Of a stretch of 64,000 nucleotides of DNA, positions 1-64,000 are shown in pieces. A program made the position numbers and the translations under genes. The stretch's first letter is position 1. Each line of letters opens with the position of its first letter. A model generated the notes under the pieces. It did not search any database. It worked only from the letters and a program-made list of their open reading frames with translations, and was not told where the DNA came from. Origin of the DNA: Eledone cirrhosa (lineage: Eukaryota); NCBI GenBank assembly GCA_964016885.1, contig OZ024740.1, forward strand, positions 66,836,001 to 66,900,000, given 5' to 3'.

Positions 1-3000
1 TCTCAGATGTGGTAAATTGTTTACTTTGCACAGGTGCCAGTGGATCACCCTGCCCATCACATCATGCCTCCAGCCCTTATAGTGCGTCTGGGCTAGGTGT
101 TTACACTCGGATACAATGTGAGCCACAGTCTCCTCTCTCTCTCCACAGATCCTGCACAGTGGGCTAGCCTCCTCCTTGTAAATATGGTGTTTCAATCACT
201 TCGTTTTGAGGGCCTGCTCCTGCGCAGCCATTAACATTCCTTCTGTAGCCTTTTTGAGGTATCCTCTTCTCAACCAGTTCCATGTCTGTGGATCTCTAAA
301 TTCAGTTTTCTCAAAGAAGGTACTATGAAGGGATTTTCCCTGAAGGCTGCTCTTTCTCCTTGGTGTTATTTCCTCCTTGGACATCCCCTGGCCTACTGTC
401 CCCTCCTTCAGTACAGTTCTGAGCATTGGCTCCTTACTATCAGTCACGTATTTGTGTAGGTTGCTTTTCTCCATCTGAACACAGTCCTCTATGCTGATAA
501 GACCTCTTCCAGCCTCAGATCTCCTTAGGTAGAGTCTATCGACATCACTCCTCTTGTGGAACATGTTGTAGATAGTCAATAGCTTCCTAGTCTTCCTATC
601 CATTTCTTTTTGTTCAGCAACATTCCATCTCAGAATTCCCGCACTGTACCTAATAATAGACACAGCTCGGGAATTTACTGCACTTATGGCATTTCTGCTG
701 TTCAGATGTGACTTCAATACGCTCCTTACTCTCCGAATGTATTCAGTTCTTAACAATTCCTTCATTTTTTTGTTCTTTATGCCATCAGCCTCCAGAACGC
801 CCAAATACTTGTATCCTTCCTCAGAGTCAATTTCCTTTATCATCTCACCTGTTGGTATCTGGATTCCGTTACTTCTGCTCAACCTACCCCTCCCCATCAC
901 AATGACTCCACACTTACTAATACCAAACTGCATACATATATCACTGCTTAAAATACGGACAGTGTCAACAAGCACATCCAACTCCTTCTCACTCTTCCCG
1001 AAGAGCTTAAGATCGTCCATGAAGAGGAGGTGATTGATGGTAAGCTCTCCCTTTCCAAACTAGTATCCTGCTCTCACTTTTCGCAGCATAATGGTCAGGG
1101 GCATCAGGGCAAGGACAAACAACAGACTTCACGCTTCCCAAGGATTCTCCAGTTGATGTTAACTCTGTTTCCCAGGACCTCATACTCCTGCCCAGCAACT
1201 GTCTGATGTTATCTGCCACCTTGAAGATCTCCAGGCTTTTGGTGATCCAAGAATGAGGCACCATGTCAAATGCCTTTCTGTAGTCTATCCATCCCATGGC
1301 AAGATCAGTGTGTCTCCTCCTGCAATTCCCCATTACCATCTTATCAATAAGTAACTGGTCCTGTGTAGCACGTGACTTCTTTCGGCATCCTTTCTGTTCG
1401 TCTGGTAACAAGTTGTTTGTGTGGAGGTGATGGTAGATTTCGTCAGACACAATGCTCGTCAACAGTTTCCACATTACGGACAGACATGTGATAGGTCTAT
1501 AGTTGGTAACATCATTACCCTTGATTCGGTCTTTCATTATCAGAACTGTGGTACCTTTTGTCACCCACTCTGGTACCTCACCTGACATCAAGCAGTCATT
1601 GAACATGGTTGTCAGTTTCGGGTGGAGGGATGTTAAATTTTTAATCCAATACCCCTGCACACCATCTGGGCCTGGTGATTTCCAGTTTGTTAGTGCTTTG
1701 GCCTGCCCCTTAAGAGTTTCAACTGTGATACTCAAATCAGTTTGTTGGTGTGCCTGCTCACCGATCTCCCTCTGTACTGTCTCAATCCACCCTGCTTGGT
1801 CATTATGTCTAACATCCTGCTCCCATATTCCTCTCCAGAATGTTTTGTTTGTTCCGTCCCAGGGATCAAGTCGTTGCCTCTTTCTTTCCCCCCAAGCTGT
1901 CCAAACAGCATCTTCTGGTTGTTGTCGATATGCGGTTCTGTTTATACTGACATGACTCTGTTCTCGTATCGCCTGATTTTTGCACTCTTTGCTACAATGC
2001 GTTGCTTCAGTTCCTCTATGATAATATTTAGCTTTTTCCTCCTAGTTTTCTACTTTATTTCTAGTCTATTTTTAGTGCCTATGTTTTTTAGTGTCCCATT
2101 CAGTAGTGACTCAAGCTTTCCAATGTCATTTCTCATTTTCCTGATTTGACCACTCAGTCGTTTCTTCCACCAAGGCTCTGCTCTTTCTTGTCTGTTGTTT
2201 CCTCTCGCTTTTATACTAAGTAGTTTCCTCACCGTATTTGCTGTTGCTTTGAGGATATTGTTGCACTGGTGAAGGCTCCTCGCCTCAAGGTATGGGATGA
2301 CTTTGTTTACCTTAGCTGTTGTTTCTTTTAACTTTTCCTGTCTACAAATCTTAGGTTAATAGGTCTCCCACTATCATTGTTCAATTCATCTACCACTAAA
2401 TTTAGGATGTCAACCGAATCTTGTCCTAGCCCGTCAGCATTCATCTCCTCAGTGGCCGTATCTCTGTTCCAGGTATTATTTATCTCAGTATTCAGATCAT
2501 TGTCTGCTTCGGGTGGTTCCTCCGTTCACTCGACCTCTTCACCTTCATTTCCCACTGGCTCGTTTGCCTGGCATATTCCACCCTCCATCTCCAAGCTAAT
2601 CTCTCTGCTCAGTTCCTCCAGTTCCAGCTTGCTTATCCACCCATTAGTTCTTATTACCCGAGCCTGCCCGGCCAATTTTTGTTCATCTAATTTAAATAGA
2701 CCAATCTCGTTCCAGATGTTATGCATCCGTCTCCTATAGCCCCTCTCCTTGGGGTTACTTTTCAGGTAGCATTGCATAACAGTTCTATTCAATTCTTTCG
2801 TCCAGTTGGTTCTGGTCCCTTTCTTTCTTCTTCTTCCTCCGTCACCAGCAGTATTTGGTTCACAGCCAGGTTCCTGCTGCTGAGCCAGGGAGCACCTGTT
2901 GGGTGAGAGTCTGTCACATGTGTTCTAGTCTCCATTTCACCGTTATTCGAACTGTTAAGGTTCGATATTTAAACACTCTTATCGAGGATTGGCGAATGTA

Positions 3001-4360: not shown

Positions 4361-5040
4361 TTCTTTCATTATTGTTTCTGAGATATATGCCGAGTGCCTT
4401 CCCGACACCTAGGGCAAATAAATTCCCAGTGTACCAGTTAATACAGCACATGGATTTAAAATTAATTTAAAAGAAAAAAAAACCCAGTATAGATATATAC
4501 TCATGTGCATATGCATATGTAAATACAAGGAGGGATATCAATCTTACAGAGATAGTGCTCTTCTAAATACGTGTGCAGTACCAGTCAAAACAATGTTTTG
4601 CACCTCGTGCAGAGAGAGCAAACCAGGAATCAATCTCATTTGTTCCTTTCTTGATCATACCCAGTCCTCCCACAATCACTGGTATGGTAACGGCCTCGAG
4701 GTGCCACATTTTCTCACTTTCAAGAAGCACATATTTATATTTTCGTAGCTTGTCAAACTCTTTTGCCGCGATATTGTGATCACATGGGATGCTCATATCT
4801 ATCAACAAACCGACCTTGTTATGTTGATATTTTAGAATGATGTAGGGAATATTTGCTTTTATGGTCCTGTCAGTATGTACAGGAAAGTCCCAGAGAATTG
4901 TTACTTTTTCTCCTTCAGTCACAACCTCAGGGTGATGGTTGTACCACTTGTCTTCAGGTTTGATTTTGTAATGCCGACATATTACCCAGTGTAGATATTG
5001 ACCATCTCAGTGATGTCTATATTTGTATTCTACTGGTGCT
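4361..5040 (-). mobile_element. 5'-truncated R4/Dong-type LINE 3' end (REL endonuclease + 3' UTR)
   Basis: ORF 4563-4922 ILWDFPVHTDRTIKANIPYII..LLIDMSIPCDHN..KE.DK..KY..PVIVGGLG is a decayed PD-(D/E)xK REL domain. The 3' UTR runs into (TAA)n. Confidence 0.85.
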
Positions 5041-17626: not shown

Positions 17627-17639
17627 GATATATATAAAT

Positions 17640-17762
17640 GGAAAAGACTGAAACGAAATTTCATTTCTCACTCTTAGTACGGCTGATACCTAAATATAAG
17701 TATGTATACGTACATACATATATGTATACAGACGTACAGTAGTGTGTATATATATACATACA

Positions 17763-17817
<55 letters not shown>

Positions 17818-18605
17818 GTATGGGTTTACCGAACATTTATTATAATGCTCGGTTTGTTTCTAAATAAACAGCCCGAATTAAGCCGTACAGTGTTCGGCAA
17901 CCATCGTTGCCCTTTTGTTCAACACTGACAAAGGAATGATGAACTAATTGCAAGCTTATTAGCTATCGTCAGCACCGTATACCTTTCTGTCAGATGATTG
18001 AAGGTTTGAAAGTATATACTTTCCTTATGCATATTACCGGCTGAGCAGACTAATTTGCATATCGAGTGAGTTAGTCGTACTAAGAGTGCATGTATATATA
18101 TATATATATACATACTACTGTACGTATTTATACATATATGTATGTATACATATATGTATGTACTTATACATACTTATATTTAAGTATCAGCCGTACTAAG
18201 AGTGAGAAATGAAATTTCGTTTCATTCTTTTCCATGTATCGTTTTCGGTACGCCCGGCCGATTAACTCACTCGATATGCAAATTAGGCTGCTCACCCGTT
18301 AATATGCATAAGGAAAGTATATACATTCAAACGTTCAATCATCTGACAGGAATGTATATAATGCTGATGATAGCTAATAAGCTTGAAACTAGTTCATTGT
18401 TCCTTTTTCAGTGTTGAACAAAAGGGCAACGATGGTTGCCGAACACTGTACGGCTTAATTCGGGCTGTTTGTTTACAAACAAAGCGCACATTATAATAAA
18501 TGTTCGGTAAACCCATACGTATACATATATATGTGTGTACATGTATGTATATATATACATACTACTGTACGTCTGTATATATATATATGTATGTACTTAT
18601 ACATA

Positions 18606-18610
<5 letters not shown>
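17640..18610. mobile_element. family A HHR-bearing short repeat, two copies in inverted orientation
   Basis: 17640-18090 and 18100-18610 are reverse-complementary versions of the ~440 bp unit also seen at 27920-29600. Confidence 0.85.
18359..18399 (+). ncRNA. type-I hammerhead ribozyme motif (family A, core intact)
   Basis: taatg-CTGATGA-t agct aata agct t-GAAA-C TA G-TT-cattg. Stem I aatg/catt, palindromic ACTAGT stem III, GUU triplet. Confidence 0.75.
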
Positions 18611-18645
<35 letters not shown>

Positions 18646-27919: not shown

Positions 27920-29600
27920 AGTATGTATGTATACGTACGTACATATATGTATACTGACGTACAGTAGCATGTATATATATACATACAGGCACACATACAT
28001 ATATGCACGTATCAGTTTACCGAACATTTATTATAATGCTCGGTTTGTTCGTTTGTAAACAAACTAACAGCCTCAATTACGCCGTACAGTGTTTAGGCAA
28101 CCACGTCACCTTTTTGTTCAACACTGACACAGGAACCTTGTACTAGTTTCAAGCTTATTAGCTATCGTCAGCACCGTATACCTTTCTGCCAGATGGTTGA
28201 ACGTCCGAAAGTATATACTTTCCTTATGAAAATTAACGGCTGAGCAGCCTAATTTGCATATCGAGTGAGTTCAGTAGGCCAGGCGCACCGAAAACGACAA
28301 ATGGAATAGAATGAAACGAAATTTCATTTCTCACTCTTAGTACGGCATTTACTTAAATGTAAGTATGTATGTATACGTACAGTAGCATGTATATATATAC
28401 ATGGTGGCTGCCAACTCGTTTTCGAGTACGGCCACTACTTTATATCCATGTAGGAGAACCCCTACCGATGCGCTGAACGAGTGTGACTTTTTAGTCCAGC
28501 CAGCGACTTGAAAACTCTGGTACAAACACTACACTTGTGACAATTACTGACACATAGTGCTGGGCCCATGGTACCATGTGACGACAAGTGCAGAGAGATC
28601 TCCAGATATAAAGCAATGCCTGTGCCGTGAAGCTTTTATAGTGAGCAAAGGCACTGCACAAAGCCAGTCCCACTCTCTTAACCAAGATGATATTTACCAA
28701 AAAGAAGAACAAGTCAACATCATTGGATACCATCAGGGTTGCAGGTGTTATATCAGAGTTTTCCTTCTCCTAGAATTCTGCCTTGACAAAGGCTAAGGGG
28801 TCATCTCTCCCGGTGATTTTGGATGGCCATTGACTCTTAAGAGCTCCTTTGCCCTTTGACAGGTTTTGTTTTTAGTCCTGCAGGATGTCCAAAGTCACCC
28901 TCCTCACCAAGAAACCTTGGTGGGGTTGCCAGTTTAGTCGCCAACGACCCGACCATGGGACGGGTTGTACTGGGATACATGTTACCAGTAGCACCAACTG
29001 GTGACCTGACATATATATACATACAGGCACACATACATATATGCACGTATCAGTTTACCGAACATTTATTATAATGCTCGGTTTGTTCGTTTGCAAACAA
29101 ACAAACAGCTTGAATTACGCCGTACAGTGTTTAGCCAACCACGTCACTTTTTTGTCCACACTGACACAGGAACGATGTAATAGTTTCAAGCTTATTAGCT
29201 ATCGTCAGCACCGTATACCTTTCTGCCAGATGGTTGAACGTCCGAAAGTATATACATTCCTTATGAAAATTAACGGCTGAGCAGCCTAATTTGCATATCG
29301 AGTGAGTTCAGTATGCCAGGCGCACCGAAAACGATAAATGGAATAGAATGAAACGAAATTTCATTTCTCACTCTTAGTACGGCACTTACTTAAATGTAAG
29401 TATGTATGTATACGTACATACATATATGTATACAGACGTACAGTAGCATGTATATATATACATACAGGCAGACATACATATATGCACGTATCAGTTTACC
29501 GAACATTTATTATAATGCTCGGTTTGTTCGTTTGTAAACAAACAAAAGTAAGTGCCGTTCTAAGAGTGAGAAATGAAATTTCGTTTCATTCTATTCCATA
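27920..29600 (-). mobile_element. head-to-tail family A array (441 bp period, about 2.3 units) with an HHR per unit, ending in a short inverted piece
   Basis: ATGCACGTATCAGTTTACCGAAC recurs at ~28003, 29041 and 29482. HHR cores CTGACGA..GAAAC lie on the minus strand at ~28139-28176 and 29172-29214. Inverted terminus at 29546-29598. Confidence 0.85.
28403..29010 (-). mobile_element. family H 608 bp non-coding retroposon with 12 bp target-site duplication
   Basis: ATATATATACAT flanks both sides (28391-28402 and 29011-29022). Partial opposite-orientation copies at 53145-53533 and ~58160-58370. Strand is inferred from the shared end. Confidence 0.8.
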
Positions 29601-29807
29601 TATATATATATTTATATATATATATCGGCCTGCCCGACCAGCCAGAGGGATGGCGTTATCTTATTGCCAAAACAGCACGACATGCAGTGACCAGCGGCGA
29701 CGACTGGCGCCCGACAGACTGGTCGGTCAAGGTGGTAAAGGCGATACATATATATATACACACACCCACATACATACACACATATACACACATACATACA
29801 CACACAG

Positions 29808-31929: not shown

Positions 31930-36600
<4,671 letters not shown>

Positions 36601-41511: not shown

Positions 41512-42070
41512 ATACATTGGGAGGGTCATGTTGCCAATAAGAAACACACGCACCAGTTGCTTTCACTTCAATTTATTATAATACATTTATAATAAATTTA
41601 TAAATTTCTGGTTGGTTGGTTGGTTCCACAACCAGATAGTTGTTTATATATTGTCATAGTTCTTTCGTCACACACTCTGTGACCTCTTCAGTGACTGGGG
41701 ATTCCTTTCTTTGTTTCTGTGCCTCTCCTTTGTTCTGTCCTACGCCATTTTGTTTCAGAAACAAAATGGCGTAGGACAGAACAAAGGAGAGGCACAGAAA
41801 CAAAGAATGGAATCCCCAGTCACTGAAGAGGTCACAGAGTGTGTGACGAAAGAACTATGACAATATATAAACAACTATCTGGTTGTGGAACCAACCAACC
41901 AACCAGAAATCTATAAATTTATAAATTTATTATAAATGTATTATAATAAATTGAAGTGAAAGCAACTGGTGCGTGTGTTTCTTATTGGCAACATGACCCT
42001 CCCAAAGTATAACAATATCGGTTTCAACACACGATTTCAGATAAAGAATCTTGCTAAACAAATTCAAAAA

Positions 42071-50106: not shown

Positions 50107-50224
<118 letters not shown>

Positions 50225-50395
50225 AAATAACGAAACGAAATTAAATTTCGTTTCGTTATTTCTTTTTATCGTCTCCGCTGAACCGGTACGTACTCACGCT
50301 CTATGCAAGTTAGTCTGCCCACTACTAATTTTCATAGAAAAAGCATATAACGATATGTGCTTTTACGATTCTCCAGAGAGGCCGGAAGATAGGTA

Positions 50396-50440
50396 AATAT
50401 TGCTGATTAGTTGTAACAACAACGAAACTAGTTCAATATT
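50396..50440 (+). ncRNA. hammerhead motif in a diverged family A relative (G8 mutated)
   Basis: aatattg-CTGATTA-gttgt aaca acaac-GAAA-C TA G-TT-caatatt. Confidence 0.65.
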
Positions 50441-50658
50441 CCTTGTCTGGCTTTCTGGAGAATAGAGGAAAGGTGTTTCCTCAAAAACCAGTATGACTCT
50501 AAAAACCGGTTTGTCTGTGTGTTTACATACAGAATAGCTGGACACTCACAGTAAAGTGACCAGAGAAAAACTTGGTACATTTACATATGTATACGTGTGT
50601 GTATTCATATGCATACTAGTATTTCAGTATACATATGTGGATGTACATTTTTAACTTA

Positions 50659-50742
<84 letters not shown>

Positions 50743-55887: not shown

Positions 55888-57996
55888 ATATATATATATG
55901 AAAACAAGGAGAAATAGACTATTGTGAGGAAGAAAAATATATTGTTTTCCTTTTTTGTTTCTCTCTCTCTTTTTTCTGGGTTAGAAAATGATTAAAACGA
56001 AATGTTTTATTTTGTGTGAAGTGTTAAGGTATTAGTTAATTTATTTATTATTTAACAATGGCATTTATTTATCTATTTATATATATAATTATTGTCTATT
56101 ACCGGTTTCAGCATTTATATGCATTATCAAATGATAGTGAAATGTATTAGTGTGGTGTCGCACATGTTAAACAGAAGGTGCAGAAAGAATAATGTTATAT
56201 ACAAACAAGGTTTAAGAAGTGAAAAGAAAAGAGAAAAAGGAAAAAAAGAAAAACAAAAACGTGCATAATGTTTCTAACGTAAAAAGTAAATGTGGAAGAA
56301 AACATAATGTTATTTACAAGCACAGTCATTGAAGTTAAGAAGTTCAAAATGTGTTAATATCGCAAGAGTGCTTAGTTGAACCATGGTTCCGTGAAGGAGG
56401 CAAATGGTGGACTGTGGTTTGATATGATTTCCCTTTTTAGAGAGTTAATATGCAGGGGAAACAATTCTTGCTGGGTGATATTTAATTTATTTAGAGAAAA
56501 AGGATTAGGTAGGGTGTGAGGGAAGTAACACTTGTAAATGTTTGATGGTTTGTTGCAGTTTTAGATTGGTCCAATATTAGGGCATTGAGTAGTGGTTGAA
56601 ATTTATTAATGAAATGTGTTTCCTTATTGGTTCGTTGGATGAAAGTAGCGTTGTCTCTGAATCTGTAAATGGGGAACATTTTAAAGTTTGGATGTTGGTT
56701 GAGGGCACAATCAGTGATATGTTCACTACATGCAATCTTTCTGTATTCCTGTATTTTAATTTATGATTTATGGACGGTCATACGTTGACGGAGGCTGTTT
56801 TTGTTTGTCCTATGTAGTGCTCTTGACAACCTGAGCAGGTCATACGTCCAAACACACAACATCATAAAGAGCAAAAGACAACCTAAATCCATACAAAACA
56901 TCCTCACACAAGCCAAAATCCAACAAACCCTCACAATTACCCCTATAGTAACAAAATGCGGAAGGCCCAACAGTGCCATATGCATAAATCTCATAGGAGG
57001 TTCAACATTCCATTTTAAATAGGGACAATCTTTAACAGTTAAATGCAACTTTACATGTGCATTTGAAAACCGTATCTATGTTTTGACCTGCTCAGGTTGT
57101 CAAGGGCATTACATAGGACAAACAAAAAACAGCCTCTGTCAACGTATGACCGTCCATAAATCACAAATTAAAATACAGGAATACAGAAAGATTGCATTTA
57201 GTGAACATATCGCCAATTGTGCTCTCAACCAACATCCAAACTTTAAAATTTCCCCCATTTACAAATTCATAGACAACGCTACTTTCCTCCAACGTACCAA
57301 TAAGGAAACACATTTCATTAATAAATTTCAACCACCAATCAATGCCCTAAAAATCGGACCAATCTAAAATTGCAACAAACCATTAAACATTTACAAGATT
57401 TACCTCCCTCACACCCTACCTATTCCTTTTTCTTAAATAAATTAAATATCACGCAGCAAAATTGCTTCACCCTGACTATTAACTCTCTAAAAAGGGAAAT
57501 CATATCAAACCAGTCAACCATTTGCCTCCTTCACGGAACCATGGTTCAACTAAGCACTCTTGCGTTATTAACACATTTTGAACTTTGTAACTTCAATGAC
57601 TGTGCTTGTAAATAACATTATTTTTTCTTCCACATTGACTTTTTACGTTCCACATTATGCACCGTTTTGTTTTTCTTTTTTTTCCTTTTTCTTTTTTCTT
57701 TTCACTTATTAAACCTTGTTTGTATATAACATTATTCTTTCTGCACCATCTGTTTAACATTTCACTATCATTTGATAATGCATATAAATGCTGAAACCGG
57801 TAATAGACAATAATTAAATATATAAATAGATAAATAAATGACATTGTTAAATAATAAATAAATCAACTAATAACTTAACACTCCACACAAAGTAAAAAAT
57901 TTCGTTTTAATCATTTTCTAACCCAGGAAAAAGAGAGAGAAACAAAAGAGGAAAAACATATATATTTTTTCCTCATAATCGTCTCTTTCTCCCTGT

Positions 57997-61759: not shown

Positions 61760-64000
61760 GGTTATCAATAATGTAGTGATAATATATCGTTACGTTAGAG
61801 ATGAACAGCGTACGTGCAGGTTTGCTCAACGAGTATAAATTATATTCCGGAGAAATGTAGAAAGGATGAATATAAAATGAAAGTGCTTTTGTTAAAAAAG
61901 GAATTTATTAGGTATTGACATATGTTTCTGTAACAGACCGAATACCTATGTATCGCTGCTTGCGTAATCATATAATGTTAGCAAGTATTCGATAGCAAAT
62001 GTATAATCAGTTGTCACTTCTTCAGAGATTTTGGATAAACTGGATAAAATCAGAAAAATTGAAGTATTTATATTAGTAAAAGAGGAAGGAACAGAGGGGA
62101 TAGAATATGACAGATGGTAAAATAATTTACTGCTAAACAAGTATATAATGGGTTTTTAATGAGAATACCATGAGTAAATCTAAATAAGAAATTTTGGGAG
62201 TGCCAATTTTAATCTCTACTTGACCAACTGGACAGTGGACAGGGCTGGTCATTTGGTGCAGTAGTATTAACTATAAAGTGTCAATTGGGGAAGGGGGAGA
62301 TTTCGATTGCTACTAAATAACATCAATGCTAGTATCCAGCTGGTATATGCACTAGGGAATTGAATCAAGAAATCAGAAATCTCATTTTATCTATAGCAGT
62401 TTGTATTAAAAGGTAAATAATAGAAGAGTTGATAGAATTAAGACTAATAAAGAATGTTCATATCTATTTTGACAATAAAACGGGGATAGAGACAGTCGTT
62501 CAATCCTGGTAGTATTTATAATATGAAAATGTAGATTTTAAGCGATGGTTACAGTATAACGATCGCTCTATTCTGTTATTTAATAAAATGTTTTTGGATT
62601 TCATAATACAAAATAATTCTACATTACATAATTTACAAAATTCCTGTCCATGGGTAATGGGGGGGCATCGCTATTATATCCCATTTTAGGTGAAATTGTT
62701 GGTTATTTTCACGCAGCTGCCAAGCCTTGTCTGCGAGTGTTGTTACATAACGCTGGTTTTCATGTTTTATCGAATAACGATGTCTATAAAGGCGTGATTT
62801 GAAGGAGGTGGCTGTAGATCCCACATAGTACCACTTCTGTCTATCCGATTCGATAGTACATTTGTATACGATGTTGCGTTCAAGACACTGATTGTTCAAC
62901 GGACACATTCCTGGTTGGACACAGTTGCAATTACAATTTTGCGTTGTTGTATTGCCATGGATGGGTTGATGAGGTTGCTTATGTAGGACAGGATGTTGTT
63001 TGTTGTTTTGTGATGTTATAGCTAATGTTTTACGTGTATTGTTATGTGTTGGAAGGCGTTTAAACAACCGTTTTGCGTTAAGCTTTTTTATATGTTGTTC
63101 AATATTAGGGGCGGTTGAATATGAAAGTCGAATAGTGTTAGGGTTTAAGATTTTATTATATTTATGTGATGTTGGAAAGTGTTTTCTAACTAATCGAAAG
63201 AATTTTGAGGGTAGATTGGTTTTAATAGATTTGTTATAGACCGGGTTGTACCAGATATACTCCTTACATCGCCTTCTGTTTGGTGGTGTGCGACTATTAT
63301 TGTGTCTATTGCGGTAGTGTATGTATGGTGGTGATTCTGTGCTATTTCTACTCCTATGCGATTTATTTTGGGTGTTTTGGTGATCATTGACTATATACTC
63401 TATATTATCTAGGTGACCGGCTTTCCTAAGTGCATCATCATAATACTTGGCATGTTCTTTGAAGGTTTGTTGGTTGGACGATAGGCGGGAGATTCTAAGA
63501 GAAACATATCTAGGGATGGATTTAATTATAGAGAGTGGATGGTTAGAACTCGTATTTACATATTTAAGGTTCTCATTTAGTTTATGGAACGGTTTAATCG
63601 TATCTGTATTGAGATTGAAAGTAACATCAAGGAAATTGACCTCTTTGAGGTTATATTCAAATGTAATATTTAATCCTAGTTCTTTAAAAAGTTTTCTGAT
63701 ATTTTTACGCATCCTTTCTAAATTCTGGTTATTCATATGCTTAACTAATAGGAGCGCATCGTCACGGTAAATTCCACCGTGGAGATCCTTGAATTGTCCT
63801 TGTAATCTGTGGGTGATATAAATTCCCACAAGATCTGTTACTTCCGCCGAATCATTAGAACCCATAGTGATATCAAAATTAGAAGGTCTATCTTTGCGAA
63901 CCCAGTAGCTATCATCGAATTTAACTATAGTTTTTCTCGCTTCCATAATAATTTTAATTTCAGCATCCGTAAGGTCGGAATTATCCTTAGCGAACGAAAG
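61760..64000 (-). mobile_element. Penelope-like element, RT + GIY-YIG nearly intact; runs off the window end
   Basis: 437 aa ORF with MGSNDSAE, GGIYRDDA, NFLDVTF, CNC..CPLNNQCL, IVY..YYVGST..FKSRL..H. Homologous to the 32-34 kb copy. Its 3' region has CTGAAGA..GAAA-C ATAT G-TC at 61917-62025. Confidence 0.95.

What the first reader, a model, noticed from the sequence alone, without database searches (positions are those of the whole stretch)
18359..18399. Stem covariation among family A hammerheads indicates selection on the fold
Stem I is taatg/cattg here, acggtg/catcgt at 29172-29214 and aatattg/caatatt at 50396-50440. Stem II changes from agct/agct to gttgt/acaac, while CTGA..A, GAAAC and the TAG of stem III mostly persist. 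Different sequence with the same pairing is the best internal evidence that the motif was functional in the source elements.
Basis: seen in the sequence. Interest (0 to 1): 0.7.

Follow-up and report, generated by a model that had tools for sequence, protein, structure and literature searches.

The report
Hammerhead repeats with U6-type promoter

Summary
The three motifs are real type I hammerheads (C3 at 18364+, 29208-, 50403+) in 430-500 bp non-coding repeats; 37,922 genomic sites match the core pattern, control 0. All three stem I differences of the 18359 copy from its family majority are CpG transitions private to that copy, and copies decay neutrally (core 1.8% vs flank 2.2%). Between seven subfamily masters, 8 of 12 pairs change on both sides and none breaks (tree-aware neutral chance about 0.04 per pair), so selection acted on the source elements. 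All five window copies carry private lesions. Arrays, inverted arms, a one-sided tail and (AT)n flanks fit Penelope-mobilised non-LTR retrozymes, a known class. The unusual part is a 12-mer (octamer) plus TATA just upstream of the ribozyme, matching this genome's U6 (3 independent loci) and RNase MRP promoters but not U2. Its spacing is 5 bp short; transcription and cleavage are untested. This scan had already noted the promoter layout on other DNA of this genome; I reached it before looking.

The parts
17634..18612 (.). One two-armed insertion of retrozyme subfamily A1, flanked by (AT)n: inverted arm 17634-18077 (-, ends in the ~60-bp tail) and arm 18091-18612 (+, ends without tail)
18204..18233 (+). 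Conserved hairpin followed by a T-run; marks the tail end of insertions
   Evidence: sequence; end mapping; T-runs
18275..18286 (+). 12-mer TATGCAAATTAG (octamer core), same motif as upstream of host U6 and RNase MRP genes
18318..18323 (+). TATA-like box, 42 bp after the octamer; TATA+30 predicts a start near 18348 (inferred)
18352..18357 (+). Stem I bulge (majority AGGTAT), likely partner of loop II; G18353T in this copy
   Evidence: position matches the HH9 bulge
18358..18400 (+). Type I hammerhead, A1: stem I 18358-63/18395-400, core 18364-70 and 18385-88, U.U at the base of stem II, 6-nt loop II, palindromic stem III ACTAGT 18388-93, predicted cut after T18394 (GUU); four CpG transitions private to this copy
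17936..17978 (-). Hammerhead of the inverted arm; A13>C and C15.2>T, predicted dead
27921..28402 (-). A2 copy; 12-mer 28249-28260; hammerhead 28135-28177 with two stem I mismatches
29011..29603 (.). A2 insertion (29011-29544 minus arm, 29546-29603 plus tail fragment); 12-mer 29286-29297
29172..29214 (-). Hammerhead, A2 (GUA site); private G16.2>T at 29180 destroys the stem III palindrome (self-duplex +2.2 vs -4.8 kcal/mol)
50217..50666 (+). Family B copy (467-bp unit) between (AT)n tracts; 12-mer variant 50302-50313, TATA-like 50344-50350
50396..50440 (+). Hammerhead, family B; private G8>T at 50408 in the catalytic core, predicted dead; the family itself has the canonical core

Best explanation
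The motifs are decayed copies of type I hammerhead ribozymes in abundant 430-500 bp protein-less repeats (non-LTR retrozymes) whose source elements kept the fold by paired changes, and which likely use an internal copy of the host's U6/MRP-type upstream signal to start transcription, are predicted to cut as dimers into unit-length, likely circular RNA, and are likely inserted into (AT)n tracts by Penelope-type enzymes. Shown: motif anatomy, family-level covariation, neutral decay of copies, arrays and end pattern, match of the 12-mer and TATA to U6 and MRP promoters. Inferred: transcription starts about 10-30 nt before the core, runs through the next unit's promoter and is cut at the next hammerhead, so each monomer carries a whole promoter; two neighbouring hammerheads pair through the 6-nt palindrome; a host ligase closes the circle; a Penelope-type reverse transcriptase copies more than one round. 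My odds: selected hammerhead in the masters 0.95; Penelope-mobilised retrozyme 0.85; the box is a working promoter 0.65; it is read by Pol III rather than Pol II 0.6 of that.
For: Covariation: 7 masters (A1-A4, B1, B2, C) that are homologous outside the ribozyme: 12 of 12 pairs intact, 8 vary, all 8 on both sides; neutral simulation on the flank tree gives P(intact and double change) 0.023-0.041 and P(intact given it varies) 0.10-0.21 per pair. With D and F added, 11 of 13 pairs change on both sides, 0 of 500 shuffles reach it, slid controls at most 3. Core 9 of 9 identical between A, B and C while stems are 12-13 of 24 and flanks 49-72%. B1/B2 differ by one double change in stem II at 99% flank identity; that pattern has 4,165 matches, and 100 of 100 listed carry the compensated form. 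Stem III stays a palindrome while changing: ACTAGT, ACATGT, ACGCGT, ATGCAT. Retrozyme traits: no ORF, GC 0.34-0.35, tandem arrays (18 hammerheads in 10 kb), circular fold z about -9 to -10 for B and A4 units. Penelope traits: minus-run then plus-run arrays, tail on one arm only, (AT)n flanks, scattered 5' ends, as described in 10.1101/2021.04.23.441226; 0 of 180 family A 3' ends fall in the bin of the cut site, so the template was not a cut linear monomer. Promoter: 12-mer at -77 to -79 with TATA at -30 in 7 of 15 U6 loci (3 independent places) and in 1 of 1 MRP gene, 0 of 15 U2 loci; 11-12 of 12 letters kept between A, B and C; background 29-45 per Mb in shuffles, and 40 of 71 real hits precede a hammerhead.
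Against: No cleavage or transcription data. Octamer-to-TATA spacing is 41-43 in the repeats but 46-48 in U6 and MRP. U2 genes here also have a TATA-like run near -35, so TATA does not mark Pol III. T-runs of 6-7 sit at the tail in A3 and some A4 units, as long as host U6 terminators, which would stop Pol III before it copies the next promoter; absence of T4 in the body is not significant (P 0.05-0.69). Families D and E lack the 12-mer yet D has 14,592 matches. Family A has U.U and family C has A.A at the base of stem II, and A1, B and C have a GUU triplet; an axolotl hammerhead with the same U.U cut only 22% in 1 h as a monomer (PMC7229834), and 8 of 9 predicted Xenopus retrozymes did not cut (bioRxiv 10.64898/2026.07.22.740005). 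No autonomous partner shares sequence with the units. Only three deep lineages underlie the tree test, and the structure was drawn from these same sequences.
Confidence: 0.72

Rival explanations
1. Ordinary promoter-less retrozymes: the hammerhead is selected, but RNA comes from read-through by neighbouring transcription, and the 12-mer is kept for another reason (a POU-factor site acting as enhancer, or an RNA or protein signal).
For: A review states that retrozymes do not seem to harbour promoters (PMC7761336, passage). Spacing is 5 bp short of U6 and MRP; families D and E spread without the box; no clear PSE could be aligned.
Against: The 12-mer, its orientation and a TATA at constant distance are kept in A, B, C and F across 49-72% flank identity, and TATA+30 lands on or one base before an AG in every family shown.
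Confidence: 0.2
2. The units are detached pseudo-LTRs of an autonomous Penelope-like element; the ribozyme was selected in that element and the short units are by-products amplified as satellites.
For: Xenopus retrozymes are homologous to pLTRs (bioRxiv 10.64898/2026.07.22.740005). The genome holds intact 760-aa Penelope-like ORFs whose 3' repeat has a hammerhead with a palindromic stem III and GUU site.
Against: No unit matched the 3' region of 25 Penelope-like fragments or 33 loci of the one family fetched, other than as separate nested insertions. Arrays consist of short units only and carry their own subfamily-specific paired changes. Other Penelope families were not examined.
Confidence: 0.1
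3. The paired changes arose without selection, by CpG decay and by template switching in short inverted repeats.
For: This is what happened in the 18359 copy: its G-C to A-U change is two CpG transitions; CpG sites mutate at 5.4% against 2.2% elsewhere.
Against: Among 155 copies it is the only private double change; the 7 others are subfamily states. Most master-level changes are transversions at non-CpG sites (G-C to C-G, A-U to U-A), and the unpaired core is invariant, which hairpin correction cannot explain.
Confidence: 0.03

Closest known systems
Metazoan non-LTR retrozymes (Cervera and de la Pena 2020, PMC7229834: passages and section 15 read; Li, Clavereau and Pollet, bioRxiv 10.64898/2026.07.22.740005: parts 1-3 of 5 read)
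   Same: Type I hammerhead in short, low-GC, ORF-less tandem units with many dispersed copies; weak palindromic helix III; U.U at the base of stem II as in axolotl HHR_Amex2; co-occurs with Penelope-like elements.
   Different: Units are 430-500 bp, above the 150-450 bp quoted; they carry a U6/MRP-type upstream signal, whereas a review says retrozymes seem to lack promoters (PMC7761336, passage); GUU triplet in three families; circular RNA not shown here.
Newt satellite 2 (Coats, Zhang and Epstein 1994; paper not held; known from its citation in PMC2220036, and from recall)
   Same: Hammerhead repeat with an internal snRNA-type promoter; dimer-type short helix III.
   Different: Reported as Pol II; here the motif matches Pol III-class genes (U6, MRP) and not U2, in an invertebrate-type genome. 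No homology tested.
Schistosoma Sm-alpha SINE-like elements (passages in PMC6765202, and PMC2770079)
   Same: Promoter followed by a hammerhead in each unit; upstream unit transcribes the next.
   Different: Sm-alpha is tRNA-related (gene-internal promoter); this box is the gene-external type, and the stem III here is a bare 6-nt palindrome.
Penelope-like element pLTR hammerheads (passages in PMC6765202, and 10.1101/2021.04.23.441226)
   Same: Palindromic very short stem III, tandem and inverted layout, one-sided tail, (TA)n targets.
   Different: No RT/endonuclease ORF; full stem II with a 6-nt loop and a conserved stem I bulge rather than a minimal motif; tail about 60-75 bp rather than 30-40.
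Rfam Hammerhead_HH9 (RF02275)
   Same: Type I topology, 6-bp stem I, bulge and 6-nt loop II align.
   Different: 34-36 bits against a cut-off of 52; stem III loop absent. Not a member.

Membership tests
Type I hammerhead ribozyme | Core C3-U4-G5-A6-N7-G8-A9, G12-A13-A14, A15.1-U16.1, H17 | tested here: met
   Invariant in masters; intact in 151 of 184 sampled copies; intact in the 18359 copy, broken in the 50396 (G8) and 17972 copies.
Type I hammerhead ribozyme | Helices I and II with covariation, helix I open | tested here: met
   pair 10.1-11.1 is unpaired in 8 of 11 rows.
Type I hammerhead ribozyme | Helix III able to form | tested here: inconclusive
   No room for a hairpin loop; the 6-nt palindrome gives a self-duplex of -4.6 to -7.5 kcal/mol, so only as a dimer.
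Type I hammerhead ribozyme | Loop I-loop II tertiary contact | tested here: inconclusive
   Bulge 5-6 of 6 and loop II 4-5 of 6 kept between A, B and C; the contact itself was not modelled.
Type I hammerhead ribozyme | Site-specific self-cleavage | not testable with these tools
   Needs an in vitro assay.
Non-LTR retrozyme | Short ORF-less tandem units, each with a type I hammerhead, GC under 50% | tested here: met
   no ORF of 100 aa other than simple-repeat frames overlaps the window copies.
Non-LTR retrozyme | No LTR, PBS or PPT; dispersed monomers plus arrays | tested here: met
   End mapping and arrays; no terminal repeats seen. PBS and PPT were judged by eye only.
Non-LTR retrozyme | Expressed as linear and circular unit-length RNA | not testable with these tools
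   No raw RNA reads were available; circles cannot be told from tandem DNA in contigs.
Penelope-mobilised element | 5'-truncated tandem plus inverted arm, tail at one end, microsatellite targets | tested here: met
   (A ends at unit 60 or 427-430; B at 51 or 444-449).
Penelope-mobilised element | Shared 3' or pLTR sequence with an autonomous partner | tested here: not met
   None found in the one family and 25 fragments examined; other families unexamined, so this lowers 'derived from that pLTR', not 'moved by Penelope enzymes'.
Host U6/MRP-type (type 3) promoter | 12-mer TATGC(A/T)AAT(T/G)AG in sense, upstream of TATA | tested here: met
Host U6/MRP-type (type 3) promoter | Spacing of 46-48 bp from octamer to TATA | tested here: not met
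   41-43 bp in A, B, C, F.
Host U6/MRP-type (type 3) promoter | Proximal sequence element | tested here: inconclusive
   No clean PSE aligns even among the U6 and MRP loci.
Host U6/MRP-type (type 3) promoter | Drives transcription from about TATA+30 | not testable with these tools
   Needs 5' end mapping or a reporter.
Rfam HH9 (RF02275) | Score at or above 52 bits | tested here: not met

The most novel reading that the evidence does not exclude
A lineage of animal retroposons has moved the gene-external U6-type Pol III promoter inside its own unit and uses a dimer hammerhead to cut read-through transcripts into circles that carry that promoter, giving self-transcribing circular RNA retroposons at more than 38,000 copies; the 5-bp shorter spacing may tune or switch the polymerase.
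Probability: 0.4. Interest if true: 0.72.

Novelty: new variant of a known kind. Interest (0 to 1): 0.52.

Why it matters
How animal retrozymes are transcribed is open: a 2020 review says they seem to have no promoter and rely on read-through (PMC7761336). A box that matches the host's own U6 and MRP genes letter for letter, at a fixed place before the ribozyme in four families, makes this testable with one reporter and one 5' end map, and would extend the newt satellite 2 layout to an invertebrate and to the Pol III class. The set of masters is also a natural mutational scan of a dimer-type hammerhead (U.U or A.A at the base of stem II, GUU site, four palindromes). As a lesson in method, CpG decay of a CG/CG stem mimics a compensatory change in a single dead copy.

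Tried and rejected
Rfam at gathering score on four loci: no match; HH9 on the whole genome: one sub-threshold hit. R-scape was not available; replaced by pair counts and a tree simulation. Selection on individual copies rejected: non-CpG change rates were core 26/1427, stem I 32/1216, stem II 14/834, 12-mer 29/1503 against flank 505/22831, all P>0.3; loop II 9/834 gave P=0.03 uncorrected in seven tests (family B left out; most copies were top BLAST hits, so they lean young). Families D and F were left out of the tree test because a pairing descriptor found them and D shows no flank homology. T4 avoidance as a Pol III sign: not significant. Partner search: 3' regions of 25 Penelope-like fragments and 33 loci gave no shared sequence; Pfam and PDB gave no significant hit for the 760-aa ORF; the Atlas tied it to GIY-YIG and HTH_animal clusters. 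A tRNA-derived head was not tested. Papers: nine searches listed no description of these families or of a U6-type promoter in a retrozyme; most subscription papers and repeat databases are outside the library, and the bioRxiv supplements (species and family tables) could not be seen. Coats 1994 is not held. A look-up of earlier notes by sequence returned nothing.

Full report
Observation. The three motifs are present as quoted. A strict descriptor finds exactly these three in the window, with C3 at 18364 (+), 29208 (-) and 50403 (+); BLAST adds two more copies of the host repeat at 17821-18077 and 28015-28356, both minus. The window is G000:C1:66836001-66900000 of a 3.0-Gb genome, AT-rich and full of microsatellites. 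An octopus-like animal is my inference, not a call result. Rfam gives HH9 at E=4.7e-7 for the 50385-50456 copy, below cut-off. The core pattern has 37,922 exact matches and 0 for the reversed control.

I fetched the 30 best relatives of each of the three copies and 1 Mb of evenly spaced sequence (100 stretches). The majority stem I of subfamily A1 is ACGATG/CATCGT. The 18359 copy differs from it at 11 of 260 places; the three in stem I (C18359T, G18360A, C18398T) and one at N7 (C18368T) are CpG transitions, and G18353T hits the stem I bulge. The TA/TG state is in 1 of 41 A1 copies. CpG sites change at 5.4% (196/3648) and others at 2.2% (660/30480). Among 155 copies this is the only private change on both sides of a pair; 7 other doubles are subfamily states, and 35 of 72 one-sided changes break the pair. 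Core, stems and 12-mer mutate at the flank rate in copies. So copies are not under selection. The copy folds at -12.6 kcal/mol, z 0.19, against -19.4, z -1.57 for a near-majority copy. The other four window copies have private lesions too: G8>T at 50408, G16.2>T at 29180, two stem I mismatches at 28137-8, A13>C at 17950.

The conclusion holds at the level of masters. The sample yielded subfamilies A1-A4, B1, B2, an older family C found by profile search, and D, E, F, G found by descriptor. A, B and C are homologous outside the ribozyme; F matches C weakly; D does not. In 7 masters of A, B and C, all 12 pairs are intact, 8 vary, and all 8 vary on both sides. Between families the core is 9/9 identical, the stems 12-13/24, the flanks 49-72%. 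Independent neutral evolution on the flank tree gives 0.023-0.041 per pair for an intact double change and 0.10-0.21 for staying intact given change; 0.21 to the eighth power is about 4e-6 (my arithmetic). With 11 real copies including D and F, 11 of 13 pairs change on both sides and 0 of 500 shuffles reach this; the 8 unpaired cells are all at 10.1-11.1. B2 differs from B1 by one U-A to A-U swap at 99% flank identity; the pattern has 4,165 matches and all 100 listed are the compensated form. Stem III has no loop and is always a palindrome, in four versions; 100 of 100 listed matches of an SS pattern are ACGCGT. That points to dimer cleavage, as described for Penelope and newt hammerheads (PMC6765202, passages). 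Caveats: three deep lineages, structure drawn from the same data.

What the element is. Units are 430 (A1), about 480-500 (A4), 467 (B) and 310 bp (D), without ORF, GC 0.34-0.35, in arrays (18 hammerheads in 10 kb at C4), with strongly paired circular folds (z -9.1, -10.1, -4.2 against doublet shuffles; the (AT)n part inflates A4). This is the non-LTR retrozyme class (PMC7229834, passages and section 15; bioRxiv 10.64898/2026.07.22.740005, parts 1-3 of 5). Insertions are a minus run followed by a plus run. Of 180 family A 3' ends, 59 fall at unit 40-79 and 109 at 400-430 or 0-19 (the latter include spurious matches to AT-rich tracts); none falls in 200-219, where the cut site is. Of 21 family B ends, 7 fall at 40-59 and 13 at 440-467. 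Where two arms are seen, one usually has the tail and the other does not, and both abut (AT)n. This is the Penelope signature in 10.1101/2021.04.23.441226 (passages). The 18359 motif lies in the plus arm of one such insertion, 17634-18612. The genome has young Penelope-like elements with 760-aa ORFs in 3,017-bp tandems; I call them Neptune-like from the cysteine motif before the endonuclease, a label and recall. They share no sequence with the units, so the partner is not named.

The promoter-like block. Alignment of units showed a kept TATGCAAAT(T/G)AG upstream of the ribozyme. I fetched 15 U2, 15 U6 and the one MRP locus. The 12-mer is at -77 to -79 with TATA at -30 in 7 of 15 U6 loci (three independent places); 6 more in the C19 cluster have it displaced to -271, one has it at -276, one has none. 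MRP has it at -78 with TATA at -30. None of 15 U2 loci (three distinct upstream types) has it. In A1-A4, B, C and F it precedes a TATA-like box by 41-43 bp, and TATA+30 falls on or next to an AG 13-29 nt before the core; D and E lack it. It is kept at 11-12 of 12 letters between families. Shuffles give 29-45 hits per Mb; 40 of the 71 real hits precede a hammerhead. Against a plain U6-type reading: spacing is about 5 bp short of the host's 46-48; U2 genes have a TATA-like run too; T6-T7 runs at the tail of A3 and some A4 units match host terminator length; stem I pairing extends 5' of the predicted start, which fits a read-through or circular RNA but not the first transcript alone.

Mechanism. 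Shown: anatomy, master-level covariation, neutral copies, insertion pattern, motif match. Inferred: an upstream unit starts transcription at the 5' edge of its hammerhead; the RNA runs through the next unit's promoter; adjacent hammerheads pair through the palindrome and cut; a host ligase closes the monomer (as reported for other retrozymes, PMC7229834 abstract); a Penelope-type RT copies more than one round and inserts at (AT)n. Activity may be modest: the axolotl motif with the same U.U cut 22% in 1 h as a monomer and better as a dimer, and 8 of 9 Xenopus predictions did not cut.

Known versus new. The class is known. Internal promoters have precedent in newt satellite 2 (snRNA-type, Pol II) and schistosome repeats (Pol III) (PMC2220036, passage; PMC6765202, passages), while a review says retrozymes seem to lack promoters (PMC7761336, passages). 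Nine searches listed no paper on these families or on a U6-type promoter in a retrozyme; PMC11892584 and PMC2770079 (passages) gave background only. Earlier notes of this scan describe the same promoter layout elsewhere in this genome; I reached it, before that look-up, and they are not independent support.

Verdict. Observation confirmed; interpretation right in outcome, wrong in its headline example. New variant of a known kind; interest 0.52, nearly all of it from the promoter block.

Noticed in passing
window 32095-32208 (-), after the Penelope-like frame 32950-34224 (-): The 3' repeat of a Neptune-like element holds a type I hammerhead with a stem II insert of about 90 nt, a 4-bp stem I, a palindromic 8-nt stem III and a GUU site; also in intact copies (L314). 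Standard descriptors miss it.
   Followed up: partly
L314 (G000:C4:204132500-204142400), L315, L316: Young Penelope-like family with 760-776 aa ORFs in 3,017-bp tandems and (AT)n ends; 47,364 first-look candidates; no significant Pfam or PDB hit.
   Followed up: partly
window about 57770-57820 (+), after the GIY-YIG frame 57023-57367: Decayed hammerhead-like motif with an ACCGGT palindrome in the 3' part of another Penelope-type relic.
   Followed up: no
L243-L253, L317 (family D, 310-bp arrays): Very young retrozyme family, 14,592 pattern matches, ACGCGT stem III, no 12-mer promoter box.
   Followed up: partly
L110, L116, L120, L214, L310 (family E); L116 (G); L094, L285 (H): Further hammerhead families: E with a long stem III in short tandem repeats, G with a long stem II and ATATAT stem III, H minimal with an AAGTACTT palindrome.
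   Followed up: no
L275, L276, L278-L281 (U6 cluster on C19): 6 of 11 fetched U6 copies of this cluster have an insertion of about 190 bp between TATA region and gene that displaces the 12-mer to -271.
   Followed up: no
L204 (-) near 4461; L154, L283, L151, L216: Other repeats carry the 12-mer: one with a gutted hammerhead downstream, others with none visible.
   Followed up: no
window 196-2924 (-): Frameshifted non-LTR retrotransposon reverse transcriptase relic (RVT_1 E=3e-11).
   Followed up: no
window 41709-41805: Perfect inverted repeat of about 45 bp arms; gives only sub-threshold miRNA matches, probably a small fold-back element.
   Followed up: no
window 62393-64000 (-): Second, more divergent Penelope-like relic, 57% identical in protein to the one at 32950.
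   Followed up: no
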